Assembly: GCA_022072455.1 (NCBI GenBank)
Contig: JAJVHY010000014.1
Location: 57,693 to 121,692 of the forward strand
Source of the DNA: Verrucomicrobiia bacterium
Lineage (GTDB): Bacteria > Verrucomicrobiota > Verrucomicrobiia > Palsa-1439
Reading direction: 5' to 3'
DNA length: 64,000 bases
The stretch's first letter is position 1. Every line of letters starts with the position of its first letter. Made by a program: the position numbers and the translations under genes. The notes beneath the pieces were generated by a model, which was not told the DNA's origin, did no database searches, and was given only the letters and a program-made list of their open reading frames with translations. Of this stretch, positions 3,354 through 50,026 are shown one piece after another.

Positions 3354-3367
3354 CTCAATCGTGTGAG
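3354..3367. promoter_or_regulatory. Palindromic motif copy a: CTCAATCGTGTGAG
   Basis: Perfect match to CTCAnnCGnnTGAG. It lies in the divergent intergenic region, 35 nt upstream of ATG 3403 (+) and upstream of the BNR gene start (-). Confidence 0.6.
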
Positions 3368-3402
3368 TTGTCTTCCCGTTACTGACTTGTTACAAATCGC
3401 TC

Positions 3403-4995
3403 ATGAACTTTGCCGGTCTCCACTATTACGATCCCGGGTGGATTGTCCCGACGCAGGAAACGATACGCGCCGAGGTTTGCATCTATGGCGGTACTGCGGC
3501 TGGTGTCGTAGCGGCGGTCAAGACAGCTCGGCTCGGGGCGAAGGTCGTGCTGCTTCAACCCGGTCAACACCTCGGTGGTCTGACAACCGGTGGCTTGGGG
3601 TACACCGACTACGGCAAGAAGCACGTCATCGGCGGCATGGCGCGTCAGTTCTACCGGGATCTCGGACACATGGCCGGCAAGAACGAGGAATGGCATTTCT
3701 GGCCGAGCGCCGCTGAACAGCTTTGCATCCGGCTGGTTGCCGACGCCTGTGTGCCGGTTCGGTACTGTCAGTATCTCGATGACGTTGAAATGTCCGGCCA
3801 GCGCATCAGGGCGGTCACGATGCACGGTGGATTACGCGTCGAGGCGGCGCTGTTTCTTGACGCTTCCTATGAAGGCGACTTGCTGGCCAAGGCCGGCGTC
3901 AGTTACACGGTTGGGCGCGAGGGCAACGCGCAGTATGGCGAAACGTTCAACGGCATCCAAGTTCATGGACTGCACCAGTTCAGTCATCCGATTGATCCCT
4001 ACGTCGTTGCCGGTGATCCAACGAGCGGGTTGTTGCCGCAGATTGTTAAGGAAGATTTGTCGAGCCGAACGGGCAGTGGCGACCAGCGCGTCCAAGCCTA
4101 CTGCTTCCGGATGTGCCTGACCGATGACCCGGCGTTGAAAATCGACTGGCCGAAGCCGGCTGACTTCGATCCGCTTCAGTATGTTTTGGCGACGCGCTGG
4201 TTCAACAGCCCCAAAGATCCCCGCAACGAGCAACTGCACGGCACCGATATCGTTCCGTCCAAATTCGATATCCTCGAACGGACCACGCCCGGCGGTGGCA
4301 ATAAGACCGACACCAACAACCACGGGCCGGTCTCCAGTGATTTCATTGGTGCGAATTACGATTGGCCGGAAGGCGACTACGCCACCCGCGAAAAAATTTT
4401 CCAACGGCACGTCAGTTACCAAATGGGATTCTACTGGCACATGGCCAACGCGCCTGAGATTCCGGAGCGCTACCGGCGCGCGTACCGGCGCTGGGGATTG
4501 CCGAAGGACGAGTTCCTGGATACCGGCCACTGGCCGCATCAACTTTACATCCGCGAGGCGCGGCGCATGGTCAGTGATTACGTGCTAACGGAAGCCGACT
4601 GCCGGTTGGAACGGACGGTTGATGACTCAGTTGGCATGGGCAGCTACAGCATGGACTCGCACAATTGTTCCCGGTTTGTGAAAGTTAAAAACGGTCGCGC
4701 CCGCGTTCTCAACGAGGGCGATGTCCAAGTCGCTCCCGCCGGGCCCTACCCCGTGTCGTATCGCAGTCTCGTGCCGAAACGGGGCGAATGTGAAAACTTG
4801 ATCGTGCCGGTCTGTCTTTCGGCTAGTCACATCAGTTATGGATCGGTGCGCATGGAGCCGGTCTTCATGATTCTCGGTGAATCCTCCGCCGTCGCGGCAA
4901 CCATGGCGCTCGCGGCGAAACAGGCTGTTCAGGACATTGATGTTCCCGCGCTCCAGCAACGCCTCTTGAAGGACGGACAGATTCTCCATGCCTGA
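3403..4995 (+). CDS. FAD-dependent oxidoreductase
   Basis: N-terminal dinucleotide-binding fold VCIYGGTAAGVVAAVKTARLGAKVVLL followed by GGLTTGG. 530 aa with a clean ATG. Confidence 0.7.
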   Translation: MNFAGLHYYDPGWIVPTQETIRAEVCIYGGTAAGVVAAVKTARLGAKVVLLQPGQHLGGLTTGGLGYTDYGKKHVIGGMARQFYRDLGHMAGKNEEWHFWPSAAEQLCIRLVADACVPVRYCQYLDDVEMSGQRIRAVTMHGGLRVEAALFLDASYEGDLLAKAGVSYTVGREGNAQYGETFNGIQVHGLHQFSHPIDPYVVAGDPTSGLLPQIVKEDLSSRTGSGDQRVQAYCFRMCLTDDPALKIDWPKPADFDPLQYVLATRWFNSPKDPRNEQLHGTDIVPSKFDILERTTPGGGNKTDTNNHGPVSSDFIGANYDWPEGDYATREKIFQRHVSYQMGFYWHMANAPEIPERYRRAYRRWGLPKDEFLDTGHWPHQLYIREARRMVSDYVLTEADCRLERTVDDSVGMGSYSMDSHNCSRFVKVKNGRARVLNEGDVQVAPAGPYPVSYRSLVPKRGECENLIVPVCLSASHISYGSVRMEPVFMILGESSAVAATMALAAKQAVQDIDVPALQQRLLKDGQILHA

Positions 4996-6049
4996 TGATT
5001 TTTATCCGGCGATGCTGGCGTTGTTCGGAGCCGGCGTTGAACCGCCCGCAAATTGGCCTGCAAGTTGGGACGCCGCGCTCGCAACGTTGCCGCCCGGGCC
5101 GCCTCCGTTTTTGCGCGCGGACTTCGTCCGTGAAGCGGCGGAATTTTCCGCCATTTCCGAGGAGTTGAAAACGGAGCTGCTCCGAGCTGCGCTCGTGGTC
5201 AAGGACGATCCGTTGTTGAGCCGGGTGGCGTGGTTTTTGCACCGCATTTACCTGGGCGCACCGCGACCTGGTGCCGCGGAGATTTGGCATTGGCCGTTCA
5301 ACGCCCGGCCGCTGCCGCGCCGCGCGGCACTCTTGCCGGCGCTCGTGGTGCTGGCGGGAACGACCGGGCTGCGCGAAATGCACCGGGCGCGTGGTATTCC
5401 GGACGATGTTACGCGCGCCACGCTCACGGACCTCGAAGTGTGGATCCGCACCTTTTACCGGCAGCATGGATACTGGGGCTTGCAGAATCTGGCGTGGTTG
5501 AGTTGGCATCTGCGCGGGGAACTCGTCCGCTTGGGCCGGCTGCAATTCAAGTATTTGCCATTTCCGGGGCCGCGCGTATTTCGCCACAAGCTGACCCGGA
5601 AAATCAGCCTGGAGCCGACGGACGGGGAGCCGGTCCTCGCGCCGGGTGACTTGGTGATCGACATTCACATCCCGGAAGGCGGGCCGATGGATTTCGACGC
5701 CTGCGGCGCCGCGCTCCGGCAAGCGGTCGAATTTCTTCCAAAACATTTGCCAACCCCGGCGCCGCCGGTGGCGTTCTATTGTTGCTCTTGGTTTCTCGAC
5801 CCGCAATATGCGCAGATCCTGCCGGCGAACTCGAACATTGTCCGATTTCTCCGCGAGTTTTATCTGTACCCGGTGCCGTCGGACGACCGGGAAGCGTTCC
5901 GACGCGTCTTCGGCGAGGTGCCGCGCGACTTGGCCACCGCGCCGCGCGACACGGCGTTACGGCGGGCGATGCTCGATTTCAAACTGGCCGGCGGTCAGCT
6001 CCGCTACTGCGCCGGCTTCAAACTCCTCGCCGGCTGGCGCTGGGGCTAG
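4988..6049 (+). CDS. Acyltransferase-like protein (NAT_N/GNAT_C-type), tentative
   Basis: GRLQF, IDIHIPEGGPM and CCSWFLDP resemble my memory of the N-acyltransferase N-terminal / GNAT-like C-terminal family. There is an 8-nt overlap with the upstream stop (ATGCCTGA). Confidence 0.4.
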   Translation: MPDDFYPAMLALFGAGVEPPANWPASWDAALATLPPGPPPFLRADFVREAAEFSAISEELKTELLRAALVVKDDPLLSRVAWFLHRIYLGAPRPGAAEIWHWPFNARPLPRRAALLPALVVLAGTTGLREMHRARGIPDDVTRATLTDLEVWIRTFYRQHGYWGLQNLAWLSWHLRGELVRLGRLQFKYLPFPGPRVFRHKLTRKISLEPTDGEPVLAPGDLVIDIHIPEGGPMDFDACGAALRQAVEFLPKHLPTPAPPVAFYCCSWFLDPQYAQILPANSNIVRFLREFYLYPVPSDDREAFRRVFGEVPRDLATAPRDTALRRAMLDFKLAGGQLRYCAGFKLLAGWRWG

Positions 6050-8294: not shown

Positions 8295-8308
8295 CTCATC
8301 CGTGTGAG
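8295..8308. promoter_or_regulatory. Palindromic motif copy b: CTCATCCGTGTGAG
   Basis: Perfect match, and the arms extend to ATCTCA/TGAGAT. It lies 14 nt upstream of ATG 8323 (+) and 38 nt upstream of the conserved EEP N-terminus (-). It is followed by TAAT. Confidence 0.6.
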
Positions 8309-8322
8309 ATAATCCACAGCTC

Positions 8323-9222: not shown

Positions 9223-9223
9223 G

Positions 9224-10826: not shown

Positions 10827-11897
10827 TTACACTCGCCAGCGGGTGAGCATCAGGCAGGGCGGTTCGCCGGGCTTGTCAACTTGGTAATAGACCGTCACCA
10901 ACGTTCCATCGGCACACTCGACGGTGGCCGGGTAACCCAAGTCTTCATCGGGCGCGTCGTCACGGAGGACGATCTCGTGCCGGTAATCCCATGTCTGGCC
11001 GCCATCGGTGGAAAGGCAGGCACGTTGGCCGGTGGGCGCGTGGCGGATGCCATAGGTGACGAGTAACCGGCCGTCGCGGAGGCGGATGAGGTGCGGCGGT
11101 TTGCCCCAGATTTCCGTCGGACGCGGCGCGGTCCAGGTGCGACCGCCGTCGGTGGAGTCGAATTGCCAGAGGAACGCGTTCTGGTCTTCCTGTGTTTTTG
11201 GGCGCTCTTCATAACGTGCCATCGCGACTAACCGACCCGGTGAGACTTCGACCACGTGCGGTTCGCATAGATAACCTTGGGCGGTCGGAAACATGCCGGT
11301 GCGTCCGATGACTTGCCACGTCTGGCCTTGATCGCGCGATTCGGCGGCGATGATGGAACTGGTCTTGCCGGCGCGGTCGTAGGCGTCGTTGCCGACGTAC
11401 AGGAGCCGGCCAGCGGTGCAGACGATCGGGCCGTGCGGCGCGGTGGGCGGGACACGCAAGGGCGGCTCCCATGTCCGCCCGCCATCGGTCGAACGGCGGA
11501 GCCAGTGGCCGCGCCGGTGGTTCTCGCCGTCAATCAGGCCCGGCGAACTCCAGTTGGCGACATCTTGCGCCGAGACGTTGCGCATGTGGTCGGGCCAGCG
11601 TTCCGGCCATTGCCGTTTCCAATAGGTGAACCACGTCACGATGATCGTGCCGTCCGGGCAGACGCACAGGCCGGCGTCGCGGTCGTCGAGCGGGGTGTTG
11701 GTGATGATTACCGGCGCCGACCACGTTTGACCGTTGTCGGTGGAACGCATGAGAAACGTTTTGCCGAGAGGACAGACATGCGCGTCGCGATCACCGGAAA
11801 AGACGACAAGCAGTTCGCCCGCCGGTGTGGCGGCGATGGTGGGCCAGGCGAGATACCGGCCGACCTGTTTGCAGATGACGCGGGATTCGAGAATCAT
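10827..11897 (-). CDS. BNR/Asp-box repeat (sialidase-fold) protein, no signal peptide
   Basis: Five Asp-boxes: STDNGQTW, STDGGRTW, SRDQGQTW, STDGGRTW, STDGGQTW. ATG 11897 forms an ATGA overlap with the upstream stop. The Pro/Arg-rich extension in the track (to 12287) overlaps the upstream gene. Confidence 0.8.
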   Translation of the reverse strand: MILESRVICKQVGRYLAWPTIAATPAGELLVVFSGDRDAHVCPLGKTFLMRSTDNGQTWSAPVIITNTPLDDRDAGLCVCPDGTIIVTWFTYWKRQWPERWPDHMRNVSAQDVANWSSPGLIDGENHRRGHWLRRSTDGGRTWEPPLRVPPTAPHGPIVCTAGRLLYVGNDAYDRAGKTSSIIAAESRDQGQTWQVIGRTGMFPTAQGYLCEPHVVEVSPGRLVAMARYEERPKTQEDQNAFLWQFDSTDGGRTWTAPRPTEIWGKPPHLIRLRDGRLLVTYGIRHAPTGQRACLSTDGGQTWDYRHEIVLRDDAPDEDLGYPATVECADGTLVTVYYQVDKPGEPPCLMLTRWRV

Positions 11898-12808
11898 CGA
11901 ATACCGAACGGCTGGCGCGGGTTGTCGCAGAGAAGTTGTTGGATTGCGGGGTCGGTGAGGCCGAGATGCCGGCGGAGGTTGTCTTCGACTTTGGGCATGA
12001 AGATGCCGGAGCCGACGAGATGGCTGCGGTCCGGCGCCCAGAGGGCCATGTCTTCGCCGGTAACCACAGTCCGGCGCCCGATCTGGTAGGTGCCGGGCCC
12101 GAGGCCGGCCGGGCAGTTGGCGTCGGTGGTGATGATGGTGCGGTCGAGGCCGGCGAGCTTGAGGTAATTGCGCAGCGCGACGAAGGGCACGTGCACGCCG
12201 TCGGCAATGAAACAGAGCCAGAGCTGGCCGGCGAAGTTCAGTGCGCGTTGGACGATGTTGTCGTGCCGGTGCATCTGCATCGGGCAACCATTGCCGAGAT
12301 GCGTGAACATCGACAGGCCGGCATCGATCGCGGCTTTCAGTTCGTCGAGCGAGGCGTCAGTGTGACCGGCGCTGACGACGATGCCTTGGTTGACGAGATA
12401 CCGGGTGGTCCGCAGGCCGGGATCGCGTTCGGGGGCGAGCGTGACCAACTTGACCAATCCCGCACCGGCATCGAGAAGCTCTTTCATTTCCTCGATGTTG
12501 GCCGGGTGAATGGCGTCGACGTGATGACCGCCCCGGTAGCCGGGATTCTCGTTGAGAAACGGGCCTTCGATGTGCAGCCCGGCAATGATGCGTTGCGCCA
12601 ACGAATCGCGGGCGCGCAAGCTCGCGAATTGCGCCAGCCGGTGTTTCATCACTGGAATCGCTTCGGTGGTGATCGTCAGCAGGATTCCGCCGACGCGGTC
12701 CTTTTCAAGTCGGTCACAACAGGCGTGGAGTTCTGCCGGTGTGACGTCGTCGCGGTGAAAGTCGAGGCCGGCGTAGCCGTTGATCTGGACGTCGAAGTAG
12801 CCGGTCAT
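11894..12808 (-). CDS. N-acetylglucosamine-6-phosphate deacetylase-like amidohydrolase (short form)
   Basis: FDVQINGYAGLDF, HIEGPFL, AGHTDAS, THLGNG and ITTDAN match the order of NagA ligand and catalytic motifs. At 304 aa it lacks the usual N-terminal beta-sandwich. ATGA overlaps at both ends. Confidence 0.6.
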   Translation of the reverse strand: MTGYFDVQINGYAGLDFHRDDVTPAELHACCDRLEKDRVGGILLTITTEAIPVMKHRLAQFASLRARDSLAQRIIAGLHIEGPFLNENPGYRGGHHVDAIHPANIEEMKELLDAGAGLVKLVTLAPERDPGLRTTRYLVNQGIVVSAGHTDASLDELKAAIDAGLSMFTHLGNGCPMQMHRHDNIVQRALNFAGQLWLCFIADGVHVPFVALRNYLKLAGLDRTIITTDANCPAGLGPGTYQIGRRTVVTGEDMALWAPDRSHLVGSGIFMPKVEDNLRRHLGLTDPAIQQLLCDNPRQPFGIR

Positions 12809-14064
12809 GGAAGGCTGCCGCGCGCCTGCAATGCCAGCGCCACGTTGCGGACGGCCAACACCATCGCGGCTTCCCGCATGGACAGGCGGCGGCTGCGGGC
12901 GGTTTGGTGAACGAGCGCGAATTTTTCCTGCATCCGCCCGGTCAGCCGTGTGCGCACTTCGGTCTCGGTCATCTGTTCCTGCTGGGTTTCCTGGGTGTAC
13001 TCGAGATACGAGACAAAGACGCCGCCGGCATTGCAGAGAATATCGGGAATCACGAAGACGCCGCGTTTTTCGAGGATGCGATCGGCGGCCGGGGTGGTCG
13101 GGCCGTTGGCGCCTTCGGCGACCACGCGCGCCTGGATGCGCGGCGCATTCTGTTCGGTAATCTGGTTGCCGGTGGCGGCGGGGACGAGGATGTCGCACGG
13201 AACGGTCAGTAATTTTGTACCGGTCAACTTCGTCGCGCCGGGGAAGCCCGTGACGGTGCGATGCTGGCGCACATGCGCGGCCAGCGCCGGGAAATCCAAG
13301 CCGGTCTTGGAATAGATTGCGCCGTGAACGTCGCTGACGCCAACGATTTTGACACCCAGTTCGGCCAAGGCCGCGGCGGCCACACTTCCGACGTTACCGA
13401 AGCCTTGGACGACGGCAGTTGCGCCCTGCAGTTGACGGCCGAGTGTTTGGAAGGCGGCGGCGACGGTGGTCGCGACGCCGCGGCCGGTGGCTTCGCGGCG
13501 GCCGGGAATGCCGCCGAGGATGACGGGCTTGCCGGTGACGTAACAGCCTTGGGTCGTGGCTTGGCCGCGCGAGTAGGTGATCGCGTCTTTGATGTAGCCC
13601 ATGTCCTGTTCATTGGTGCCCATGTCGGGCGCGGGAATGTAGACGAGGGGGTGGATATGGCGCTGGGCGTTACGGGTGAAACTGCGGATCAAGGTTTCTT
13701 TGTCGTGCGGGTTGAGCGTGGCGGGATCGGCGACGATGCCGCTCTTGCCGCCGCCGAATGGAACGCCAATCAACGCGCACTTCCAGGTCATTTCCATCGC
13801 CAGCGCGGTGACTTCATCCAGTGTGACCGAACCTGTCATGCGGATGCCGCCCTTGCAGGGGCCGAGGGCGCGGTTATGGTTCACCACAAACGCGCGGAGG
13901 GTGTGCGATTTGCCGTCGGAAAACTCCGGGGAGATCCGCAGTTCAATGCGCTCTTTTGGGTCGCGCATCTTGGTGAGCAGATCAGCAGGAAATTCTTTTT
14001 TGAGCAATCGGGCGGTCTGGTCAAAGTTGGCCAGCGCATTGTCGAGCATTGAGGTGGCGGTCAT
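12805..14064 (-). CDS. Glu/Leu/Phe/Val dehydrogenase family (glutamate dehydrogenase-like)
   Basis: GPCKGGIRM (catalytic Lys region), GVPFGGGKSG, and the Rossmann motif VQGFGNVG. 419 aa. Confidence 0.85.
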   Translation of the reverse strand: MTATSMLDNALANFDQTARLLKKEFPADLLTKMRDPKERIELRISPEFSDGKSHTLRAFVVNHNRALGPCKGGIRMTGSVTLDEVTALAMEMTWKCALIGVPFGGGKSGIVADPATLNPHDKETLIRSFTRNAQRHIHPLVYIPAPDMGTNEQDMGYIKDAITYSRGQATTQGCYVTGKPVILGGIPGRREATGRGVATTVAAAFQTLGRQLQGATAVVQGFGNVGSVAAAALAELGVKIVGVSDVHGAIYSKTGLDFPALAAHVRQHRTVTGFPGATKLTGTKLLTVPCDILVPAATGNQITEQNAPRIQARVVAEGANGPTTPAADRILEKRGVFVIPDILCNAGGVFVSYLEYTQETQQEQMTETEVRTRLTGRMQEKFALVHQTARSRRLSMREAAMVLAVRNVALALQARGSLP

Positions 14065-15062
14065 GATCCGGAGGGGGACGGGGGCGGCGCACAGGACTCG
14101 CGGATGATGAGTTCAGGGCGGACCATGATTTCGTCCGGCGTGTCGCCGGTGCCGATCAGTGTTTCAAAAGCGCGCCGGGCCATTTCCGGGATCGGTTGGC
14201 GAACGGTCGTCAGGGATGGGATGGTCATGTGTGTGGACGGAATGTCATCCACGCTCGCCAGCGACAGATCGTTGGGAACTTGAATCTTGGCTTCGAATAG
14301 CGCCCGCAATGCCGACTGCGCCAGCACATCCTCGGCGGCGATCACCGCAGTGGGCCGGCGGGCTTGGCATTGGCGCAGGAGCAGTTGCATTGCTTCGCAG
14401 CCGGTGTCCACTCCCGTGTAGCGGGTGCGGATGATACACTCCGGTCGCGCCGACAAATCCGCGCACTTGAGTGCTCGCAAAAACTCTCCCTCACGCCGGC
14501 CGCTCAACTCCGTGTCGTCGCCCAGATATGCGATGTCCCGATGCCCCAACTTGGCCAGATATCCCACCAACTCCTCCAAACCGTGTTCAATGTCCGCCAC
14601 CACCCGCGTGACGCCGGTCACCTGGCCGCCGCAGCCGATGCGCACCACGCGTGTGCCGTTGGAGATGAACCGGGTTAATCCATCGGGAACAAAATCCGTG
14701 CCGGCCAGAATGAGGCCGTCCAGTTTGTAGCGTGCCAGTGAATGAATGTTGGCGTTGGACGCATAACCCGTCAGCAACAACGAGTAGCCTTGCCGGGAGG
14801 CGAGGGATTCGAGCTCGGCCAGGATACGTCCGAAGAACGGATCATCGAAATTCTTGACCACGACTCCCAGCACCTGGGTGGGCGCACCGCGCAGCATGAG
14901 GGCAACGACGTTGGGTTGGTAATTCAGGCGGGTGGCCTCAGCGCAGATGCGTTCGATGGTTTCGGGTGTGACCCCAATTTCGCTGGCGGAGCCGTTCAGA
15001 ACACGGGAAACCAACGAGGGTGAAACCCCGAGGCGGTTAGCGATGTCTTTCTGTGTTACCAT
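14061..15062 (-). CDS. LacI-family transcriptional regulator
   Basis: N-terminal HTH MVTQKDIANRLGVSPSLVSRVLNG followed by a periplasmic-binding-protein-like sugar-binding core. First gene of the operon. Confidence 0.9.
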   Translation of the reverse strand: MVTQKDIANRLGVSPSLVSRVLNGSASEIGVTPETIERICAEATRLNYQPNVVALMLRGAPTQVLGVVVKNFDDPFFGRILAELESLASRQGYSLLLTGYASNANIHSLARYKLDGLILAGTDFVPDGLTRFISNGTRVVRIGCGGQVTGVTRVVADIEHGLEELVGYLAKLGHRDIAYLGDDTELSGRREGEFLRALKCADLSARPECIIRTRYTGVDTGCEAMQLLLRQCQARRPTAVIAAEDVLAQSALRALFEAKIQVPNDLSLASVDDIPSTHMTIPSLTTVRQPIPEMARRAFETLIGTGDTPDEIMVRPELIIRESCAPPPSPSGS

Positions 15063-15107: not shown

Positions 15108-16187
15108 TCAATCACACGAATGAGATGCGCGGGCAGCGCTCCACTTGATGGTCACGGGCCGGCGGTGGCGGATGCTTTGGTAGATGCCGCAAACCAGTTT
15201 CACGCTGCGCGCGCCTTCCCGGCCATCACAAGACAACTCGCGGGCGCGGCCGGTCACCACCGCGACAAACTCCTGAAATTGCCGGCGATGACTTTCCGGC
15301 TTGAACGCCATCGGCGTGCTGGCGTTCCCACTCACAGCCGGCAACGGAGCAAACCGGTGGCGAATCTCAGCATCTTCCGCCAGCGGCGTGGCGAAGTTCC
15401 ACTGCACCACGCGTTCGTCCACTGTCACAATCGTGCCGGCGGTTCCGCAAAATTCCAGCCGGCGGCTCGTGCCGGGAAAAATCTCCGTGGACGCCTCGAT
15501 CACGCCAAGCGCGCCGTTGGCGAACTGCAAGTTCGCCACTAGATTCGTTTCCGCTTCCACGCGTTGCCGGGTCGGGCGACTGGCGAACGCGCTCACGCGG
15601 TTCACGTTGCCGGCGCACCACAACAGACAATCAGCGGCATGAATGCCTTGATTCATCAAACACCCGCCGCCGTCGAGTTTCCACGTTCCGCGCCAGCCGC
15701 CTTGATCGTAATAATCCTGGCTGCGGTACCATTTCACGTAGGCGCTCGCGCTCACCAGTGTCCCCAAGCGGCCGGCGTGAATCGCGTTGCGGACGGCGTG
15801 CATGGATTCCTTGAACCGGAAGGGGAAGATGGTCGCCAGCTTCACGCCGTGTTGCCGGCACGCGGCGATGAGCCGCTGACACCGGGCCGGGGTGATTTCG
15901 AGGGGTTTCTCGACCAAAATATGCTTGCCGGCGCGGGCGGCGGCCAAGGCCGGCTCAAGGTGCGCGCCCGATGGGGTGCAAATCGTCACCGCGTCCAATT
16001 CCGGGTCCGCGAGAAATTCCGCGAGATCGCTGGAGGGCCGGCCGCCATATTGGCCGGCAAAGGCCGCGGCCTTTTGCGCGTCGCGGCTGCAACACGAATG
16101 CAAAACTGCATCCGCCAGCCCGGTGAATGCCTGCGCATGCATGGCGGCGATGTTGCCGAGGCCAATAATTCCAAAACGGACAGGCAT
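15108..16187 (-). CDS. Gfo/Idh/MocA family oxidoreductase
   Basis: MPVRFGIIGLGNIAAMHAQAF Rossmann start, EKP motif (VEKPLE) and a typical C-terminal dimerisation domain. Confidence 0.85.
   Translation of the reverse strand: MPVRFGIIGLGNIAAMHAQAFTGLADAVLHSCCSRDAQKAAAFAGQYGGRPSSDLAEFLADPELDAVTICTPSGAHLEPALAAARAGKHILVEKPLEITPARCQRLIAACRQHGVKLATIFPFRFKESMHAVRNAIHAGRLGTLVSASAYVKWYRSQDYYDQGGWRGTWKLDGGGCLMNQGIHAADCLLWCAGNVNRVSAFASRPTRQRVEAETNLVANLQFANGALGVIEASTEIFPGTSRRLEFCGTAGTIVTVDERVVQWNFATPLAEDAEIRHRFAPLPAVSGNASTPMAFKPESHRRQFQEFVAVVTGRARELSCDGREGARSVKLVCGIYQSIRHRRPVTIKWSAARASHSCD
15111..15124. promoter_or_regulatory. Palindromic motif copy c (one mismatch): minus-strand CTCATTCGTGTGAT
   Basis: Lies 48 nt upstream of the LacI ATG (15062) and overlaps the last codons of the preceding Gfo gene. 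The central CG and 9 of 10 fixed positions are kept. Confidence 0.5.
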
Positions 16188-18201: not shown

Positions 18202-18215
18202 CTCATACGGATGAG
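18202..18215. promoter_or_regulatory. Palindromic motif copy d: CTCATACGGATGAG
   Basis: Perfect match in a divergent intergenic region, 51 nt upstream of ATG 18267 (+) and 74 nt upstream of ATG 18127 (-). Preceded by TATATAAG. Confidence 0.6.
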
Positions 18216-22458: not shown

Positions 22459-22472
22459 CTCACACGGATGAG
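22459..22472. promoter_or_regulatory. Palindromic motif copy e: CTCACACGGATGAG
   Basis: Perfect match, 51 nt upstream of ATG 22524, followed by TATAAA. Lies in a 121-nt AT-richer same-strand gap. Confidence 0.6.
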
Positions 22473-25155: not shown

Positions 25156-25169
25156 CTCAGCCGTGTGAG
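25156..25169. promoter_or_regulatory. Palindromic motif copy f: CTCAGCCGTGTGAG
   Basis: Perfect match, 52 nt upstream of GTG 25222, followed by TTAAT. Confidence 0.6.
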
Positions 25170-32256: not shown

Positions 32257-32269
32257 GTGAGCCGTGCGG

Positions 32270-32294
32270 GTAACTGTTCCTGCCGGCCAGTTAC
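32270..32294. terminator. Weak hairpin between convergent genes (GTAACTG-11 nt-CAGTTAC)
   Basis: Perfect 7-bp inverted repeat in the 67-nt gap between the stop of the giant gene (32256) and the stop of 32324..32893. No T-run follows. Confidence 0.2.
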
Positions 32295-32323
32295 GGCATC
32301 ATCGCTCCTCGCTGGACGGAAAA

Positions 32324-34581: not shown

Positions 34582-34595
34582 CTCACACGTATGAG
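34582..34595. promoter_or_regulatory. Palindromic motif copy g: CTCACACGTATGAG
   Basis: Perfect match, only 4 nt upstream of ATG 34577 (-). Lies in the 71-nt gap after the DegT gene stop (34649). Confidence 0.55.
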
Positions 34596-36045: not shown

Positions 36046-37413
36046 ATGGAAACAACGACAAATAGCATTGTGCTCAATCGTATGAGCCAATTTAAGTCGG
36101 AATATACGAAGGTCGAAAAGATTTTGTCAAGCTGTCCGACAATCAACCGGCAATTGGCGGTTTCAACCGAGGAATTCGTGGCGCGGCAGAAGCGCGTATA
36201 CGAGGGAATCAAACAGGCCGGCTGCGAGGTCGGGTTCGTCTTCAGCGATGAACATTACAACGGTGACGTCCCGTATCTTGGCGGCAATACCAACATCAGC
36301 GTCGAACAAGTTGCCGGCGTGATTGGCCAGACCGGCTTTCACATTGTCGCCGGGCTGGAAGGCGGCTACATCGCCGAGCAACTCGCCCCCCGCGCCAAAG
36401 CCATCGTTCACAAAGCGGAACTCCTCCAGCTCGCCGACGAAAAATATCCCATCCGTGCGGAACGCCTCGAAGACATCATCGAAGCCGCGGCGGACGGGAA
36501 AGTGGATCGCATCGCCCTGTTGACGCCGCGGCAAGTGATCCCCGCCGGTGTCGTGGACTATCTCGAAAACCTCTTCGGCAAGGAAAACGTCGTGGACGCG
36601 CAGCTGATCTATTTCAAGATCAAGAATCTGAAGTCCGACCGCGAGATGGAATTAATCCGCGACGCCAACGTCATCGCCGATGCCATGCTGCGGGCAATGC
36701 TCGCCGTCATCAAACCCGGCATGTACGAAACGCAGGTGGCCGGCTGGGCTTATCACGTCGGGATGGAACTCGGCGCCGAAGAAAACGGATTCGACATCAT
36801 GGTTGGCGCGAACGAAGCCAACCGGACGCTCATCGGCAAGGCGCTTAATCGCCGCATCAACGAAGGCGACTGGGTTCACCTCGGCGTCGCGCCGAAGCGC
36901 GATGGCCTCACCAGTTGCCTCCGCCGTTCGATTGTCGTCGGCCAGCCGACCGCCGATCAACGCTGGTGGTTTGATTTTGTCAACGAGGCGTACGCGACCG
37001 GCTACGCCGCGTACGTTGACATCGTGAAGCACAACAAGCCGGCCAAGTTTCAAGAGCAAGCGCTGGTGGATTACTTCCGCTCCCGCACGGCTGAGGTCAA
37101 CGCGCGCTTCGGCTTGAACATCCCGGACTTGTCTGCCTTCAAGCCCTACACCGGCACCCACAATAGCGGCTACACGGAATGCCAGGAATTCTACGGCGCC
37201 ATCACGCTCGAAAGCGAAGAACCACTCGACCGGCAAGTCGTCACGATGCTCGACGTCGCCATCCGCGGCATCGGCGACCACTGGAACGCGAAAATGTTGC
37301 CGGTGGATTATGTCGTGATCGAAAACACTCTCGGCAAGTTCGATAAGAAAGTCGTCCAGTTCAACCGAGTTCCCAACGACTGCCAGCCGTTGGTCTGTAG
37401 CGGCGGTCTATGA
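36046..37413 (+). CDS. M24-fold (creatinase/Xaa-Pro peptidase-like) hydrolase
   Basis: LKSDREMELIRDANVIADAMLRAMLAVIKPGMYETQVAGW, the pita-bread-fold order and a creatinase-like N-domain. The alternative start ATG 36082 (MSQFKSEY) is embedded in motif h. Confidence 0.7.
   Translation: METTTNSIVLNRMSQFKSEYTKVEKILSSCPTINRQLAVSTEEFVARQKRVYEGIKQAGCEVGFVFSDEHYNGDVPYLGGNTNISVEQVAGVIGQTGFHIVAGLEGGYIAEQLAPRAKAIVHKAELLQLADEKYPIRAERLEDIIEAAADGKVDRIALLTPRQVIPAGVVDYLENLFGKENVVDAQLIYFKIKNLKSDREMELIRDANVIADAMLRAMLAVIKPGMYETQVAGWAYHVGMELGAEENGFDIMVGANEANRTLIGKALNRRINEGDWVHLGVAPKRDGLTSCLRRSIVVGQPTADQRWWFDFVNEAYATGYAAYVDIVKHNKPAKFQEQALVDYFRSRTAEVNARFGLNIPDLSAFKPYTGTHNSGYTECQEFYGAITLESEEPLDRQVVTMLDVAIRGIGDHWNAKMLPVDYVVIENTLGKFDKKVVQFNRVPNDCQPLVCSGGL
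36073..36086. promoter_or_regulatory. Palindromic motif copy h: CTCAATCGTATGAG
   Basis: Perfect match in the divergent region, 110 nt from the DegT start (35962). It lies inside the 5' end of the track ORF 36046.., and its ATG (36082) is in frame with the M24 gene. Confidence 0.55.
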
Positions 37414-45109: not shown

Positions 45110-46646
45110 AGTGGCGGTGGGCTTGTTGGAGTTTGGCGCGGCAGATTGGCCGGCAGGCGCGCAGGCGTTGTTCGTGCAAAGCGAAGAGATGGCGGAGCCA
45201 TTCCTCGAAGGCGGCGCCGGCATAGCGCTTTCCGAAATGGGCGCGGACGCGGCGGCGCATGGCGGCGATGTCGCGGAGGGTCTGCCGCTGTTCCTTGAGG
45301 CGGCGCTGCCATTCGGTGGCGCAGGGCCGGTAATTCGCGGTGAAATAGTCGACTTCGAGCAGATTGAACTCCGCCCGGCGTTGCAACGCGAGCACGCGGG
45401 CCATCAACGCGATTCCGTCCCACTCGTACCGGTGGGCGCGGAGCTGGGGGGCGAGCTGGTCCATTTCGTCGGCGACTTGGAGTTCAAGCCGCCAATCGTC
45501 CCGGCAACGGCCGAGGGTGCGGATGAGGTGGTCAATCTTCTTGGCCGGCACGCCGGGCCAAAATGTTTCCGCCTTCCCGATCAGCGGCCACTGCAGATCA
45601 ATGCAGTAGTTGGGCGGACACCAACTGTTGCCACGCGCCCAAGAGGTCGTGATGTGGCCGAGTTGCCGGCTGCGGCGGACGGCGGCGTTGACGCCGGCCA
45701 GGTTGGCGCGGCGCGCATTGTACCGGGGGAGGACGGCGAGTTCCTCGCTGAGACGCACGGCGCTGATGGCGACAGCGTCGATACCGACCTTGCGCCAGTA
45801 ATCGAGTTGGAACAGTGGGAGAAACATCTTGCCGCGCTGGTAGGGAGCGATGATGCGTTGAATTGCCGGCGGATAATCTTCGACGAACAATGTGCCCGGG
45901 CCGAGGGCCGGCGCAGCCGGGTCAGCGGGATCGTTCAGCCACGCGCGCCGGACGCGGTTGCCGCAGAATTTGCTGCGTGGACTGAGTTTGTCATGGGGCG
46001 CATAATCGCCAGTCGCGAGGCAGACGCGGCCACGGAATTCTGCGAGCGCGCCGGGACGGAAATGCGCTTCGATCATCGAACCCCAAATCATGGCCTTCTT
46101 GCCGGCGGCTTCGACGACCGGGAGAATGGCGCGGAGATGGTCGAGGAAGAGGTCGAGCGGGTCGCGGCCAAGTCGTTTGGCGGCGTGTGGCAACGCGTGG
46201 GCTTCGTCCATGCCGAGGTGGATGTACCGGCTGTCCGGATGCGCCGTGACGACTTGCCGGAGGAGGTGGGTGATGAGCGCCAAGCCGCGGGGATCAGCGA
46301 GGCGAATCGTGCTCGGATAAGCCCGGTCTTCGGCGAGCGGCCGGTACTGTTTCCAAGCGAGAATATATTCGAGGTGGGCGAGGCATTGTTGGAGCGGGAT
46401 GACTTCGAGGCGGTGGCGTTTGGCTTCACGCAGGAACATCTGGAGCGTGGCCGGTGACCAGACGCGAGTCCGGTCGGCGGCGATGTCGAGTCCGCGGAAG
46501 GGGAAGACATCTTCGTATTCGACAAGCAGCGTATTGATGCCCTGCCGGGCCAGGTCGGCGAGATATTGGGGGATGTACGAAGTCTTGAAGTTCATCGCCT
46601 TGAGGTCGAGATGCAGACCGTTGATGAAGGGCGATGTTGATTTCAT
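45099..46646 (-). CDS. GH20-like protein with the same C-terminal extension (copy B)
   Basis: MKSTSPFINGLHLDLKAMNF, EVIPLQQCLAHLEY and YIHLGMDEA. The ATG 46646 start aligns with copy A. The track extension to 47015 is low-complexity and runs antisense into the neighbouring gene. Confidence 0.6.
   Translation of the reverse strand: MKSTSPFINGLHLDLKAMNFKTSYIPQYLADLARQGINTLLVEYEDVFPFRGLDIAADRTRVWSPATLQMFLREAKRHRLEVIPLQQCLAHLEYILAWKQYRPLAEDRAYPSTIRLADPRGLALITHLLRQVVTAHPDSRYIHLGMDEAHALPHAAKRLGRDPLDLFLDHLRAILPVVEAAGKKAMIWGSMIEAHFRPGALAEFRGRVCLATGDYAPHDKLSPRSKFCGNRVRRAWLNDPADPAAPALGPGTLFVEDYPPAIQRIIAPYQRGKMFLPLFQLDYWRKVGIDAVAISAVRLSEELAVLPRYNARRANLAGVNAAVRRSRQLGHITTSWARGNSWCPPNYCIDLQWPLIGKAETFWPGVPAKKIDHLIRTLGRCRDDWRLELQVADEMDQLAPQLRAHRYEWDGIALMARVLALQRRAEFNLLEVDYFTANYRPCATEWQRRLKEQRQTLRDIAAMRRRVRAHFGKRYAGAAFEEWLRHLFALHEQRLRACRPICRAKLQQAHRHYDH
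45194..45560 (-). repeat. Near-identical segment shared with 43639..44005
   Basis: See the partner entry. Confidence 0.85.
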
Positions 46647-46655
46647 ACGTGTGAG
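46642..46655. promoter_or_regulatory. Palindromic motif copy i (one mismatch): TTCATACGTGTGAG
   Basis: Lies in the divergent region, 87 nt upstream of ATG 46743 (+). It overlaps the ATG (46646..46644) of GH20-like copy B on the minus strand. Confidence 0.5.
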
Positions 46656-46742
46656 TCGGATGTCATCCACTCTATTCGGTGCGGGTGGATTGTCAATTTC
46701 ATCCTTGCCCGGTCGCCATCCGCTTCGTAGTTTCGCCTGACT

Positions 46743-48695: not shown

Positions 48696-48712
48696 CAGAG
48701 TCCTTTCGTTGA

Positions 48713-49999
48713 TCAACGGATGCGGAGCTGGCGCAGGTTCTTCGCGAGAATGCGCTCCATTCCTTTTTTGAGTCGGCCCGGCCAACCAAAGATCGCGTGG
48801 CATTCCACTTCGTAGCCGCCTTCCGGCAACATGGCCGACGTGGGCAAATACATGGCGTCACCGTTACTGTAACCGAGCGCAAAAGTCACGCCTTTCGGGA
48901 ATTGCCGGCGCATGGCCAGGCCGTGGGCGGCGACGACTTCGCCTTCGAGCGCGACGAGGCGCAAGTCAAGGCCGAGTTGGATTCCCTGCAACAACAACGG
49001 CACCTGTGTCGGCGTCGTTCCACAGTGTTCCCGGCGTTCTTCGAGGTCGAGCCACTCCCGCAATTTTTCATCGCCGGTATTGTGCCAATATCGGCGGGCT
49101 GCCGGCAACGCGAGTTCCCGCTTCAACATCTTGGGAGTCCACAACTTGTCGAGCGGCCAGAACATCTCGCGCAAATCGGTCCGCAACTGCGGGCGCACCG
49201 GCTTGAGTTTGACGGCGCGGACTTCGGCGGCGAGTTGCCGGCCGATGGCCTGGGTTTCGGGCCAGCCGGAATCCCAGTTCCAAGCGTCGCCGTGGGCGAG
49301 TTGGGCGGGCCGGGAATCGCCGCAGGTGCCCTGCAAGAACATGCCGTGGTCGGGATCCAGTTCCTGGATCGCCGCGCCGGGGAAGTCGGCGGAAATCGTG
49401 TGACCCCGGAAGGAGACCGGGTGGGTCGAGATCGAGAAGACCAGCGCAATCGTCCGGTTGCGCCGGTCGGCGAGACGAACGACCGGCAGCGCATCGTTGA
49501 CCAGACCGGCGGGATTGGGGGCGCTTTGCATGCGCCCCTTGATCAGGCGCCGCCGACTGATGGGGATGCGGGTTGTGCCGGTGCCGGCGGTGAGGGTGGC
49601 CGGGCGGGCGTTGGCTTTGGCGGTGCGTGCGGCTTGGACGACGGCGGCTTGAACTTTTTCAAGATAGACTTCGTCGGCCGGCTTGGTCAGTCCGCGGAAG
49701 AAATTCCACGAACGCGGGCCGGCATGAGTGTGCGAGGCGTTGAGCAGAATCTGGTGGGGCAGCAGGTGTAGTTCCCGGCCCAGCACGCCTTTGAACCGGT
49801 CGGCATCGCGGCGGCCAATGAAAATCAGGTCAAACGCGAGAATCAGGACTTCCTCCGTCCGTTGGTTGAGGTAGAGTGCCCGCACGAACAATGGATCGTG
49901 AATCACGGTGCAACCACCGGCGGCATCGCGTTGGCCCCAGCCGATCATCGGGGTGCCGAGCGGCGGGGTGATATTTGACTTGGCAAATCCTGCATGCAT
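48713..49999 (-). CDS. Neutral/alkaline ceramidase N-terminal-domain-like hydrolase
   Basis: MHAGFAKSNITPPLGTPMIGWGQR and NASHTHAGP are typical openings of this family. Start at ATG 49999. Confidence 0.6.
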   Translation of the reverse strand: MHAGFAKSNITPPLGTPMIGWGQRDAAGGCTVIHDPLFVRALYLNQRTEEVLILAFDLIFIGRRDADRFKGVLGRELHLLPHQILLNASHTHAGPRSWNFFRGLTKPADEVYLEKVQAAVVQAARTAKANARPATLTAGTGTTRIPISRRRLIKGRMQSAPNPAGLVNDALPVVRLADRRNRTIALVFSISTHPVSFRGHTISADFPGAAIQELDPDHGMFLQGTCGDSRPAQLAHGDAWNWDSGWPETQAIGRQLAAEVRAVKLKPVRPQLRTDLREMFWPLDKLWTPKMLKRELALPAARRYWHNTGDEKLREWLDLEERREHCGTTPTQVPLLLQGIQLGLDLRLVALEGEVVAAHGLAMRRQFPKGVTFALGYSNGDAMYLPTSAMLPEGGYEVECHAIFGWPGRLKKGMERILAKNLRQLRIR

Positions 50000-50012
50000 T
50001 TCGTAGCTTCTT

Positions 50013-50026
50013 CTCATCCGTATGAG
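50013..50026. promoter_or_regulatory. Palindromic motif copy j: CTCATCCGTATGAG
   Basis: Perfect match in the divergent region, 35 nt upstream of ATG 50062 (+) and 13 nt upstream of ATG 49999 (-). Confidence 0.6.

What the first reader, a model, noticed from the sequence alone, without database searches (positions are those of the whole stretch)
3354..50026. A 14-bp CG-centred palindrome (CTCAnnCGnnTGAG) sits at every divergent intergenic region and at four more operon starts
Seen directly. There are ten copies:
- 3354 CTCAATCGTGTGAG
- 8295 CTCATCCGTGTGAG
- 15111 (minus strand) CTCATTCGTGTGAT
- 18202 CTCATACGGATGAG
- 22459 CTCACACGGATGAG
- 25156 CTCAGCCGTGTGAG
- 34582 CTCACACGTATGAG
- 36073 CTCAATCGTATGAG
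- 46642 TTCATACGTGTGAG
- 50013 CTCATCCGTATGAG
Eight match all 10 fixed positions and two miss one. With equal base frequencies, 10 fixed positions in 64 kb predict about 0.06 chance hits. All six divergent intergenic regions of the window carry exactly one copy. The other four copies lie in same-strand gaps in front of the LacI operon, the two adhesin genes and the pseudopilin cassette. The gap to the downstream start codon ranges from 4 to ~90 nt and clusters near 50 nt (48, 51, 51, 52). Several copies run into TAAT/TATAA. The idealised form CTCACAC|GTGTGAG is a perfect palindrome, and each site keeps at least one good half. I do not recognise this as a named operator or promoter consensus. 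Two readings are possible. (i) It is the operator of a dimeric regulator: a central CpG is typical of LacI/GalR-family operators, and the LacI gene in the window has its own copy. (ii) It is a lineage-specific core-promoter or 5'-leader element, because the downstream genes are functionally unrelated (adhesins, pseudopilins, catabolic enzymes).
Basis: partly seen in the sequence, partly recalled or inferred. Interest (0 to 1): 0.8.

Follow-up and report, generated by a model that had tools for sequence, protein, structure and literature searches.

The report
LacI-family repressor operator, ten copies
The repeated 14-bp palindrome is most likely the DNA docking site of the LacI-type regulator encoded in the same window, which appears to switch about 40 sugar-polymer-degrading and surface-protein genes on and off together. 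This is an ordinary kind of switch, but it has not been described before in this poorly studied bacterial group.

Summary
There are eight exact and two one-mismatch copies of CTCAnnCGnnTGAG at the stated coordinates, against 0.02 exact copies expected by chance. All lie in promoter-bearing gaps, which make up about 2% of the window.

The LacI-family gene at 14061-15062 has orthologues across Verrucomicrobiota, Kiritimatiellia and Lentisphaeria MAGs. In 33 of 36 orthologue loci the same palindrome (consensus CTCAYACGTATGAG) sits just upstream of that gene or its operon, usually abutting a TTGACA -35 box. All 36 exact copies found in 602 kb of those loci are at that position. Control DNA totalling 3.06 Mb holds two. 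A matrix built only from those foreign sites ranks the ten window sites as its top ten.

Reading (ii), a lineage-wide core-promoter or leader element, is rejected.

The regulator's conserved operon partners are a GFO-type oxidoreductase with a class-III aminotransferase, glutamate dehydrogenase, or a NagB-like deaminase. These point to an ancestral amino-sugar regulon. In this genome the regulon has expanded over a ~60 kb glycan-catabolic island that includes adhesin-like and pseudopilin genes.

It is a new member of a known kind. Binding, the effector and the sign of regulation are inferred, not shown.

The parts
14061..15062 (-). LacI/GalR-family transcription factor (333 aa), the proposed binder of the palindrome
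   Evidence: Pfam hits: LacI HTH 33.9 bits (cut-off 27), Peripla_BP_3 114.8 bits, Peripla_BP_1 54.6 bits. Full-length match to PurR structures, E=7e-30, with the hinge-helix Leu aligned to PurR Leu54. Leu57 is invariant in 43 orthologues. No NCBIfam equivalog reaches its cut-off: best is 143 bits against 382.
15111..15124 (-). Autoregulatory operator (CTCATTCGTGTGAT, 1 mismatch). It lies 48 nt upstream of the regulator's ATG and its last base overlaps a TTGACA -35 box.
   Evidence: (14.8 bits). The same position holds the operator in 33 of 36 orthologue loci.
11897..14064 (-). Genes co-transcribed with the regulator: glutamate dehydrogenase (12805-14064) and conserved gene X (11897-12808). The BNR-repeat gene (about 10827-11890) probably follows.
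   Evidence: Pfam ELFV_dehydrog. The regulator-GDH pair recurs in L002, L008, L011, L012, L084, L087 and L095. Gene X is 80% identical to the gene that follows the aminotransferase in L282.
3354..3367 (.). Operator in the divergent gap between the BNR-repeat gene (-, start about 3325) and the FAD-dependent oxidoreductase operon (+, start 3403)
   Evidence: 23.0 bits. On the - strand it is followed by C-TTGACC, the same layout as at the regulator promoters.
8295..8308 (.). Operator in the divergent gap between the Exo_endo_phos/HAD/creatininase-family operon (-) and the Amidohydro_2/Laminin_G_3 operon (+, ATG 8323)
   Evidence: 26.0 bits, the best in the window. It lies between TTGACA (8287) and ATAAT for the + genes, and abuts TTGTCA for the - genes. 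The 79%-identical Amidohydro_2 orthologue in L282 sits in the operon divergent from the regulator and shares its operator region.
18202..18215 (.). Operator in the divergent gap between the unknown-656-aa/GFO operon (-) and the abhydrolase/1046-aa operon (+)
   Evidence: 18.7 bits. It sits inside the spacer of a TTGACT...TATACA promoter candidate on the - strand.
22459..22472 (+). Operator in front of the 861/873-aa adhesin-like gene, immediately followed by TATAAA
   Evidence: (17.1 bits)
25156..25169 (+). Operator in front of the 2344-aa PATR-repeat surface protein gene
   Evidence: (13.7 bits)
34582..34595 (-). Operator in front of the three-gene pseudopilin (N_methyl) cassette. It lies 4 nt upstream of the likely ATG at 34577.
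   Evidence: (25.0 bits). On the - strand it is followed by C-TTGATG.
36073..36086 (.). Operator in the divergent gap between the DegT aminotransferase (-) and the M24-like/DegT/GH42-like/HpcH-aldolase operon (+)
   Evidence: 16.3 bits. It lies downstream of a TTGACA-18-TATATT candidate promoter for the - gene.
46642..46655 (.). Operator (TTCATACGTGTGAG, 1 mismatch) in the divergent gap between the unknown/GH20-like/TauE/PL8 operon (-, start 46595) and the GFO/IDH/MocA gene (+, 46743)
   Evidence: (14.5 bits)
50013..50026 (.). Operator in the divergent gap between the unknown-434/xylose-isomerase-like TIM operon (-) and the long + operon (Amidohydro_2, sulfatase, 3-keto-disaccharide-hydrolase domain, creatininase-family, two heparinase II/III-like genes)
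   Evidence: (22.7 bits)

Best explanation
The palindrome is the operator of the LacI/GalR-family regulator encoded at 14061-15062.

A dimer of this protein most likely binds each CTCAyACGTrTGAG site. Each helix-turn-helix would read one CTCAyAC half-site, and the hinge-helix leucines would insert at the central CpG. The sites abut the -35 box, lie in the -35/-10 spacer, or cover the start site. A bound dimer would therefore block RNA polymerase, and one site in a divergent gap can shut both directions. An unknown sugar-derived effector, probably an amino-sugar metabolite, would release the protein.

The regulator represses its own operon (regulator, glutamate dehydrogenase, gene X). In this genome it also controls up to 15 further promoters covering about 40 genes of a glycan and amino-sugar catabolic island. 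These include two giant surface proteins and a pseudopilin cassette.

Shown by computation: the sites exist, they are confined to promoter gaps, they follow the orthologous regulator gene across classes, and they match a matrix built from foreign sites.

Inferred: physical binding, dimer stoichiometry, repression rather than activation, and the identity of the effector.
For: 1. Significance and placement. There are 8 exact sites against 0.02 expected. All ten lie in or at the edge of promoter gaps that make up about 2% of the window.

2. Linkage to the regulator gene. In 36 non-redundant loci that carry an orthologue (37-72% identity), 33 have a site with 0-1 mismatch upstream of the regulator or at the start of its operon (L106). 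All 36 exact sites in these 602 kb are at that place. Control DNA has 2 exact sites in 3.06 Mb: loci of non-orthologous LacI paralogues, GDH loci without the regulator, and Amidohydro_2 homologue loci.

3. The site follows the regulator, not its neighbours. The genes after the regulator differ between loci: GDH, GFO oxidoreductase plus class-III aminotransferase, or NagB-like plus UxaE-like. In L106, 6PGD and SDR genes come before it. The operator is present in all these arrangements.

4. Independent matrix. A PWM built only from foreign autoregulatory sites scores the ten window sites at 13.7-26.0 bits. The next best hit scores 5.4.

5. The motif type fits the LacI family. It is an even palindrome with a central CG, it lies upstream of start codons, and it is autoregulatory. 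In the survey of 1303 LacI-family regulators, 1173 have a central CG, 72% are autoregulated, and more than 75% of sites lie at -140 to -30 (PMC4052901).

6. The protein has the required parts: a LacI HTH, a hinge helix with the conserved Leu, and a periplasmic-binding-protein-like effector domain. It is the only DNA-binding protein recognised in the window.

7. Loose co-variation. Orthologues with I, T or V before the SLVSR helix carry CTCAAWCGTTTGAG. The orthologue with Glu at that position (L081) has lost the site.

8. Partial conservation of a target. The Amidohydro_2 orthologue in L282 lies in the operon that shares the regulator's operator region.
Against: - No binding or expression data exist.
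- The regulator's own site in the window is one of the weaker ones (1 mismatch, 14.8 bits).
- Three orthologue loci (L081, L103, L110) lack a site near the gene.
- Only one window target outside the regulator's operon was tested in other genomes. Its regulation is conserved only in L282, and 79 more distant Amidohydro_2 homologue loci have no site. Membership of the other target genes therefore rests on this one genome.
- The conserved core is 14 bp, shorter than the 16-22 bp typical of the family.
- Adhesin-like and pseudopilin genes are unusual targets for a LacI-type regulator.
- A second regulator with the same specificity elsewhere in the genome cannot be excluded.
- Promoter boxes in the window are consensus guesses only.
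Confidence: 0.85

Rival explanations
1. The motif is a lineage-specific core-promoter or 5'-leader element. It would be read by RNA polymerase or a sigma factor, or act as an RNA hairpin, at most operon starts in this group.
For: Every promoter-bearing gap from 3.3 to 64 kb has one copy. Several copies run into TATAAT-like sequence. The palindrome can form a small hairpin of -1.5 to -6.4 kcal/mol.
Against: In 602 kb around orthologous regulators, all 36 exact copies sit upstream of the regulator gene or its operon and none at any other promoter in those loci. There are no copies in 1.07 Mb that includes MAGs labelled Verrucomicrobiia, Lentisphaeria, Chthoniobacter and Opitutales, and none in 1.11 Mb of GDH loci.

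At more than 25 regulator promoters the motif lies upstream of a canonical TTGACA-17-TATAAT-like promoter, so it would not be transcribed. Its offset to candidate -10 boxes in the window ranges from about -38 to +33.

The stem bases are invariant in sequence rather than covarying. The hairpins are weak, and three of ten are no better than shuffles.
Confidence: 0.03
2. The motif is an operator, but for a different regulator encoded elsewhere. Its presence in front of the LacI-family gene would only mean that this operon is one of that regulator's targets.
For: No direct binding evidence links the protein to the site. L081 keeps the regulator without the site.
Against: The site follows the regulator gene across classes, whatever the neighbouring genes are. 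An even palindrome with a central CG is the LacI-family signature. The protein has the Leu lever needed for a CpG centre. Recognition-helix changes go with changes in or loss of the operator. No other DNA-binding protein was found in the window or as a constant neighbour in the loci.
Confidence: 0.07
3. The protein and site are as in the best explanation, but the regulator is a dual or global regulator like Cra or CcpA. It would activate where the site abuts the -35 box from upstream (centre about -43/-44: its own promoter, 3354 towards the BNR gene, 8295 towards the Exo_endo_phos gene). It would repress where the site overlaps or follows the promoter.
For: The operator-N-TTGACA layout is strikingly constant at orthologous regulator promoters. 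By size, at least 10 sites and about 40 genes exceed the thresholds used to call LacI regulons global (more than 15 genes in at least 7 operons). From my own knowledge, untested here: Cra and CcpA activate from sites upstream of the promoter.
Against: Victivallales and Lentisphaera orthologues add a second operator right after the -10 of the same promoter, which is a repressive position. A LacI-type footprint extends beyond the 14-bp core and would cover the first bases of the -35 box (inference). In most other genomes only the regulator's own operon carries a site within +/-10 kb. The targets here are one contiguous catabolic island rather than central metabolism.
Confidence: 0.15
4. The copies are a dispersed repeat (REP/MITE-like palindromic element) or a chance cluster with no regulatory role.
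For: It is a short palindrome repeated in intergenic DNA.
Against: The flanks share no similarity beyond promoter-like boxes. None lies in the convergent gap at 32257-32323. The copy in front of the regulator is conserved across classes. 0 of 100 shuffles reach 8 exact copies.
Confidence: 0.01

Closest known systems
LacI/GalR-family repressor-operator pairs (E. coli PurR with the pur operators, LacI with lacO, GalR/GalS, RbsR)
   Same: The protein has an N-terminal HTH plus a hinge helix with the leucine lever, and a periplasmic-binding-protein-like effector domain. The site is an even palindrome with a central CG, lies upstream of start codons, and includes an autoregulatory copy.
   Different: The half-site sequence CTCAyAC appears in no paper of the searched library. 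The protein is far below the cut-off of every named NCBIfam equivalog. The conserved core is 14 bp rather than 16-22 bp. The host group was not among the 7 phyla covered by the family-wide survey. There are ten operators in one 47-kb stretch, whereas 69% of surveyed LacI regulons have one or two operons.
Large LacI-family regulons that grew from local ones (Cra/FruR, GluR, CcpA with cre sites)
   Same: By number of sites and genes, the window alone passes the size thresholds used for 'global' LacI regulons. The contrast with relatives, which have a single site at the regulator operon, looks like the gradual regulon expansion described for FruR and GluR. Sites occur both upstream of and overlapping promoters.
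   Different: The targets are physically clustered and belong to glycan and amino-sugar breakdown, not central carbon metabolism. There is no evidence for a genome-wide role, for HPr-type co-repressors, or for activation. Targets include surface adhesin-like and pseudopilin genes.
LacI-type amino-sugar regulators such as NagR of Shewanella and Xanthomonas (recalled from memory, not tested here)
   Same: A LacI-family regulator associated with nagB-like deaminase genes and amino-sugar catabolism. NagB-like genes follow the regulator in 11 orthologue loci.
   Different: Orthology was not tested. The operator I recall for NagR is a different sequence. The most frequent partners here are a GFO/IDH/MocA oxidoreductase, a class-III aminotransferase and glutamate dehydrogenase.
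Control of polysaccharide utilisation loci in Bacteroidota (SusR, hybrid two-component systems, ECF sigma/anti-sigma pairs; from general knowledge)
   Same: One regulator appears to coordinate a large contiguous island of glycan-degrading enzymes and surface proteins.
   Different: The mechanism is entirely different: a cytoplasmic one-component LacI-type repressor with operators at every promoter. No SusC/SusD, HTCS or ECF genes were seen in the window.

Membership tests
LacI/GalR family of transcription factors (the protein at 14061-15062) | N-terminal LacI-type helix-turn-helix domain | tested here: met
   PF00356 scores 33.9 bits against a cut-off of 27, at residues 5-51. It aligns with the PurR HTH.
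LacI/GalR family of transcription factors (the protein at 14061-15062) | Hinge helix with a leucine that inserts at the central base-pair step of the operator | tested here: met
   NVVALMLRG aligns with PurR SAVARSLKV, with Leu matched to PurR Leu54. Leu57 is invariant in 43 orthologues. The residue's role is known from PurR and LacI structures (established knowledge).
LacI/GalR family of transcription factors (the protein at 14061-15062) | C-terminal periplasmic-binding-protein-like effector domain and full-length similarity to solved family members | tested here: met
   Peripla_BP_3 114.8 bits and Peripla_BP_1 54.6 bits. PurR, CcpA, RbsR and LacI chains match at E=7e-30 to 3e-18 over residues 2-328.
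LacI-family operator (the DNA motif) | Even-length palindrome with a central CG | tested here: met
   CTCAnnC|GnnTGAG in all ten window sites and in the consensus of the orthologous sites. This is the family hallmark in 1173 of 1303 regulators.
LacI-family operator (the DNA motif) | Length of 16-22 nt | tested here: inconclusive
   Only 14 positions are conserved. The flanking positions carry 0.25-0.86 bits, partly because of the adjacent TTGACA box.
LacI-family operator (the DNA motif) | Sites upstream of the regulator's own gene, conserved among orthologues (autoregulation) | tested here: met
   33 of 36 orthologue loci have such a site. All 36 exact sites in 602 kb are at this position, against 2 in 3.06 Mb of controls.
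LacI-family operator (the DNA motif) | Sites in non-coding DNA within about 30-140 nt of target start codons | tested here: met
   Nine of ten sites are fully intergenic and one overlaps the last codons of the upstream gene. Gaps to start codons are 4-110 nt.
LacI-family operator (the DNA motif) | Specific binding by the cognate regulator, relieved by an effector | not testable with these tools
   This needs EMSA, footprinting or DAP-seq with the purified protein.
Named LacI-family regulators (PurR, RbsR, GalR/GalS, CytR, CcpA, Cra, GntR, TreR and others) | Score above the curated equivalog cut-off | tested here: not met
   The best hit is 143.5 bits against a cut-off of 382 (RbsR model). PurR scores 142 against 501 and CcpA 102 against 442. 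The protein is an unnamed orthologous group.
Core promoter or sigma-factor recognition element | Present at most promoters of the lineage, at a fixed distance from the -10 box or TSS | tested here: not met
   It is found only upstream of the regulator gene or its operon in the orthologue loci and is absent from 2.18 Mb of the other control loci (GDH loci without the regulator and Amidohydro_2 homologue loci). It abuts, overlaps or follows ordinary TTGACA/TATAAT-like boxes at variable offsets.
Structured RNA leader or riboswitch | Transcribed, stable structure with covariation, or a match to a known RNA family | tested here: not met
   There is no Rfam hit in the window. The hairpins are weak. 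The stem sequence is invariant rather than covarying, and the motif lies upstream of the -35 box at regulator promoters.

The most novel reading that the evidence does not exclude
This regulator may be the master switch for glycan foraging in its Verrucomicrobiota lineage. An ancestral one-operon amino-sugar repressor would have been recruited to dozens of operons genome-wide. Those operons would cover sulfated-glycan lyases, sulfatases, oxidative 3-keto-sugar enzymes, giant PATR adhesins and pseudopilin-like secretion components. If so, CTCAyACGTrTGAG would be the first readable regulatory code for polysaccharide-utilisation islands in the PVC group. It would also link cell-surface architecture to sugar sensing through a LacI-type protein.
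Probability: 0.25. Interest if true: 0.6.

Novelty: new member of a known kind. Interest (0 to 1): 0.38.

Why it matters
How Verrucomicrobiota, Kiritimatiellia and Lentisphaeria regulate their very large sets of glycan-degrading genes is largely unknown to me. None of these groups was among the 7 phyla in the family-wide LacI regulon survey.

This finding gives a concrete, testable regulator-operator pair that is conserved across several classes. It has a simple consensus that can be scanned in any MAG of these groups to delimit an amino-sugar and glycan regulon.

The window also offers a clear example of regulon expansion. Relatives have one operator, at the regulator's own operon. This genome has ten, covering a ~60 kb island that includes surface adhesin-like and pseudopilin genes. 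This suggests those proteins function in polysaccharide capture.

In kind, however, it is a textbook LacI-type operator. The result explains the pattern rather than revealing a new mechanism.

Tried and rejected
Only one hit was from a MAG labelled Chthoniobacterales. 

2. Attempts to look up the window's own contig, to see beyond the window ends, failed for three window proteins. P0006 was also not on record. I therefore could not test whether the site density continues on the 138.5-kb contig.

3. I tested conservation of a target outside the regulator's operon with the Amidohydro_2 gene at 8323-9222. The 79 homologue loci (1.07 Mb) had no site and no regulator orthologue. Only the closer relative L282 keeps the link. 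Deep conservation of that target is rejected. The result doubles as a negative control against the core-promoter reading.

4. The closest regulator orthologue on a long contig (L081, 72% identity) has no operator, only a degenerate half-site. This is explained tentatively by a Glu substitution in the recognition helix.

5. The RNA-hairpin reading was rejected.

6. The REP/MITE reading was rejected because the flanks are not similar.

7. The apparent operator-less gap at 12288-12804 turned out to be coding.

8. The literature search for the motif strings found nothing.

Full report
**1. Observation**

There are eight exact matches to CTCANNCGNNTGAG, against 0.02 expected from dinucleotide shuffles. 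Two more have one mismatch, at 15111 and 46642. One-mismatch hits are not rare by chance on their own (2.07 expected). They are validated below by an independent matrix and by position.

The window has about 61% G+C, so raw ORF lists are noisy. I built a gene map from codon-position G+C, Pfam, start-codon inspection and one homology rescue. On that map only about 1.2 kb (1.9%) of the window is intergenic. Every gap that must contain a promoter, six divergent and four same-strand, holds exactly one site. The convergent gap at 32257-32323 and a 45-nt intra-operon gap hold none.

**2. What the surrounding genes are**

By Pfam, the enzyme genes of the window belong mostly to glycan and amino-sugar breakdown families:
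- a PL8 lyase and two heparinase II/III-like proteins;
- a sulfatase and a GH20-like hexosaminidase;
- two BNR (sialidase-like) proteins;
- a protein with a 3-keto-disaccharide-hydrolase domain;
- two GFO/IDH/MocA oxidoreductases and a xylose-isomerase-like TIM barrel;
- two DegT-type aminotransferases and an HpcH/HpaI aldolase;
- two Amidohydro_2 and two creatininase-family proteins, plus a TauE exporter.

It also holds two adhesin-like genes (one, the 2344-aa protein, has PATR repeats), a further PATR-repeat ORF at 9-2291, and three N-methyl pseudopilin genes. The only recognisable DNA-binding protein is the LacI-family gene at 14061-15062. It is followed on the same strand by glutamate dehydrogenase and a conserved gene X.

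**3. The decisive comparison**

GDH relatives fetched from one-genome-per-species contigs gave the first clue. The motif occurred in only five of 80 loci. Those were the five loci where an orthologue of the LacI-family gene has upstream sequence, and the motif sat just upstream of that gene.

I then collected orthologues of the regulator itself and aligned 43 of them. The DNA-binding region is nearly invariant: TQKDIAxRLGVSPSLVSRALxGTAxxIG...LNYxPSAAALTLRG. I used the alignment to fetch 79 loci. Thirty of these carry orthologues (37-59% identity), labelled Verrucomicrobia, Kiritimatiellae, Lentisphaerae, Victivallales, Chthoniobacter, Terrimicrobiaceae, Opitutales or Lentisphaera. The other 49 carry only distant LacI paralogues, mostly from Acidobacteria, and serve as controls.

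Results:
- Among 36 non-redundant orthologue loci (602 kb), 33 have a site with 0-1 mismatch upstream of the regulator gene. In L106 the site is at the start of the three-gene operon that ends with the regulator.
- All 36 exact sites in those loci are at that position.
- Control DNA has 2 exact sites in 3.06 Mb: 0 in 1.11 Mb of GDH loci without the regulator, 2 in 0.88 Mb of paralogue loci, and 0 in 1.07 Mb of Amidohydro_2 homologue loci.

The consensus is CTCAYACGTATGAG. A weight matrix built only from these foreign sites ranks the ten window sites as the top ten in the window, at 13.7-26.0 bits. The next hit scores 5.4 bits and lies inside a gene.

**4. The site follows the regulator, not its neighbours**

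What lies after the regulator differs between lineages:
- a GFO/IDH/MocA oxidoreductase plus a class-III aminotransferase in 19 loci (64-87% identical between classes);
- glutamate dehydrogenase directly after the regulator in 7 loci plus the window;
- a NagB-like glucosamine-6-phosphate-deaminase-family protein in 11 loci, sometimes with a UxaE-like protein;
- 6-phosphogluconate dehydrogenase and an SDR placed before the regulator in L106.

The operator is present in all these arrangements. This is the classical comparative-genomics signature of an autoregulated transcription factor and its operator. In the family-wide survey, 72% of LacI-family regulators are autoregulated, and 1173 of 1303 have an even palindrome with a central CG. 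More than 75% of sites lie 30-140 nt upstream of start codons (PMC4052901).

The protein has what such a site requires:
- a LacI HTH above the Pfam threshold;
- a hinge helix whose Leu aligns with PurR Leu54 and is invariant among orthologues;
- a periplasmic-binding-protein-like effector domain, with full-length similarity to PurR, CcpA, RbsR and LacI structures.

It is not an equivalog of any named LacI regulator. No paper in the searched library contains any of the four commonest forms of the motif.

There is also loose co-variation. Orthologues with Ile, Thr or Val before the SLVSR recognition helix carry CTCAAWCGTTTGAG. A clade with His in the following loop has a central CC. The 72%-identical orthologue in L081, which has Glu at the recognition-helix position, has lost the operator.

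**5. Anatomy and likely mechanism**

At the orthologous regulator promoters the layout is remarkably constant: operator, one base, TTGACA, about 17 nt, then a -10-like hexamer. The start codon often lies only about 7 nt after the -10, which suggests leaderless mRNAs. Victivallales and Lentisphaera-type promoters add a second operator immediately after the -10.

The window's own autoregulatory site has the same layout. The operator's last base is fused to the TTGACA box, which explains its single mismatch.

The other nine sites take three positions relative to consensus-like promoter boxes (these are weak, consensus-only predictions):
- abutting a -35-like box (3354 and 8295 towards the minus-strand genes, and 34582);
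- inside the -35/-10 spacer (8295 towards Amidohydro_2, 18202 towards the minus-strand operon, and 22459);
- downstream of the -10 box (36073, 46642, and 18202 and 50013 in one direction).

Variable placement over ordinary promoter boxes is what an operator shows, not a core-promoter element. My inference is as follows. A dimer bound at these positions occludes RNA polymerase. One site in a divergent gap can control both directions. An amino-sugar-derived effector releases the protein. The sign of regulation at the sites that abut the -35 box from upstream (centre about -43/-44) is uncertain. A Cra/CcpA-like activating role there is kept as a rival.

**6. Rejected readings**

- Core-promoter or lineage-wide element. 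The motif is absent from every other promoter in 602 kb of orthologue loci. It is also absent from 1.07 Mb that includes MAGs labelled Verrucomicrobiia, Lentisphaeria, Chthoniobacter and Opitutales.
- RNA leader. There is no Rfam hit. The hairpins are only -1.5 to -6.4 kcal/mol, and three of ten are no better than shuffles. The stem sequence is invariant rather than covarying, and the motif lies upstream of the -35 box at the regulator promoters.
- Dispersed repeat. The flanks are unrelated.

**7. Biological role and what is special here**

The conserved operon partners all handle the amino group of sugars or regenerate 2-oxoglutarate: oxidoreductase plus aminotransferase, GDH, and a NagB-like deaminase. 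The ancestral regulon is therefore most plausibly an amino-sugar catabolic operon (inference).

In most relatives, the regulator's own promoter is the only site within +/-10 kb. The 71%-identical relative L282 has one exact site plus a degenerate one. They lie in a gap shared with a divergent GFO/Amidohydro_2 operon, whose Amidohydro_2 is 79% identical to the window gene at 8323.

The window, by contrast, has ten sites that could govern up to 16 promoters and about 40 genes. This exceeds the size criteria used to call LacI regulons global: more than 15 genes in at least 7 operons. In that survey, 93% of regulons have 20 or fewer genes. More distant Amidohydro_2 homologues carry no site. The expansion therefore appears to be specific to this lineage, as has been proposed for FruR and GluR. 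Whether it extends beyond this island could not be tested, because the rest of the 138.5-kb contig was not retrievable.

**8. Verdict**

The finding is a new member of a well-known kind: a previously undescribed LacI-family regulator-operator pair (regulog) in the Verrucomicrobiota/Lentisphaerae group. Its notable feature is an unusually large, clustered regulon that includes surface-protein genes. Interest is moderate. It is useful for annotating and dissecting glycan use in an understudied phylum, but it is not mechanistically surprising.

Noticed in passing
window 22587-24056 and 25300-26769: The two adhesin-like genes share a 1471-bp stretch at 98.8% identity near their 5' ends, indicating recent duplication or gene conversion. 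Their operator-bearing promoter regions lie outside the duplicated stretch. The 2344-aa protein and the ORF at 9-2291 carry PATR repeats.
   Followed up: partly
L084, L087, L088-L090 regulator promoters (around locus positions 9950-10001); window 8308-8325: In several orthologous promoters the start codon lies only about 7 nt after the -10-like hexamer. In the window, the Amidohydro_2 ATG at 8323 lies about 8 nt after GATAAT. This suggests leaderless mRNAs are common in this group. Many window genes also lack an obvious Shine-Dalgarno sequence.
   Followed up: no
L081 9034-10035 and its upstream region 8963-9033: The closest regulator orthologue on a long contig (72% identity) has Glu in the recognition helix (GISESLVSR) and no operator anywhere in 20 kb. 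Only a degenerate half-site (ATGAG-ATTGACA) remains upstream. This may be a change of specificity or a loss of autoregulation.
   Followed up: partly
L093 2189/2240, L096 8160/8214, L097 680/728, L011 4755/4812, L012 8901/8946, L111 4022/4069, L112 8246/8293: Regulator promoters from loci labelled Victivallales, Victivallis, Lentisphaerae or Lentisphaera carry two operators that bracket the promoter. One abuts the -35 box and one follows the -10 box. Centre-to-centre spacing is 45-57 bp and is not in a constant helical phase.
   Followed up: partly
window 11897-12808 (-): A 304-aa gene with no Pfam family fills what looked like a 517-nt gap after GDH. It is 80% identical to the gene that follows the aminotransferase in the L282 regulator operon. 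It is a conserved, uncharacterised member of the regulator's operon. The long BNR ORF (10827-12287) therefore probably starts near 11890.
   Followed up: partly
L002, L003, L008, L012, L084-L093, L096, L097, L103, L121, L282 (genes after the regulator): A GFO/IDH/MocA oxidoreductase (about 400-440 aa) and a class-III aminotransferase stay 64-87% identical between loci labelled with different classes and are nearly always adjacent. This is a strongly conserved but unnamed two-enzyme module. No NCBIfam equivalog reaches its cut-off. It may be an amino-sugar deamination route.
   Followed up: partly
L282 4873-4888: A second, 16-nt version of the palindrome with two extra central bases (CTCACACGCTCATGAG) lies 31 nt upstream of the canonical operator, in the gap shared by the regulator and the divergent GFO/Amidohydro_2 operon. 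Whether it is functional is unknown.
   Followed up: no
window 1-64000: No Rfam family reaches its gathering score anywhere in the window.
   Followed up: yes
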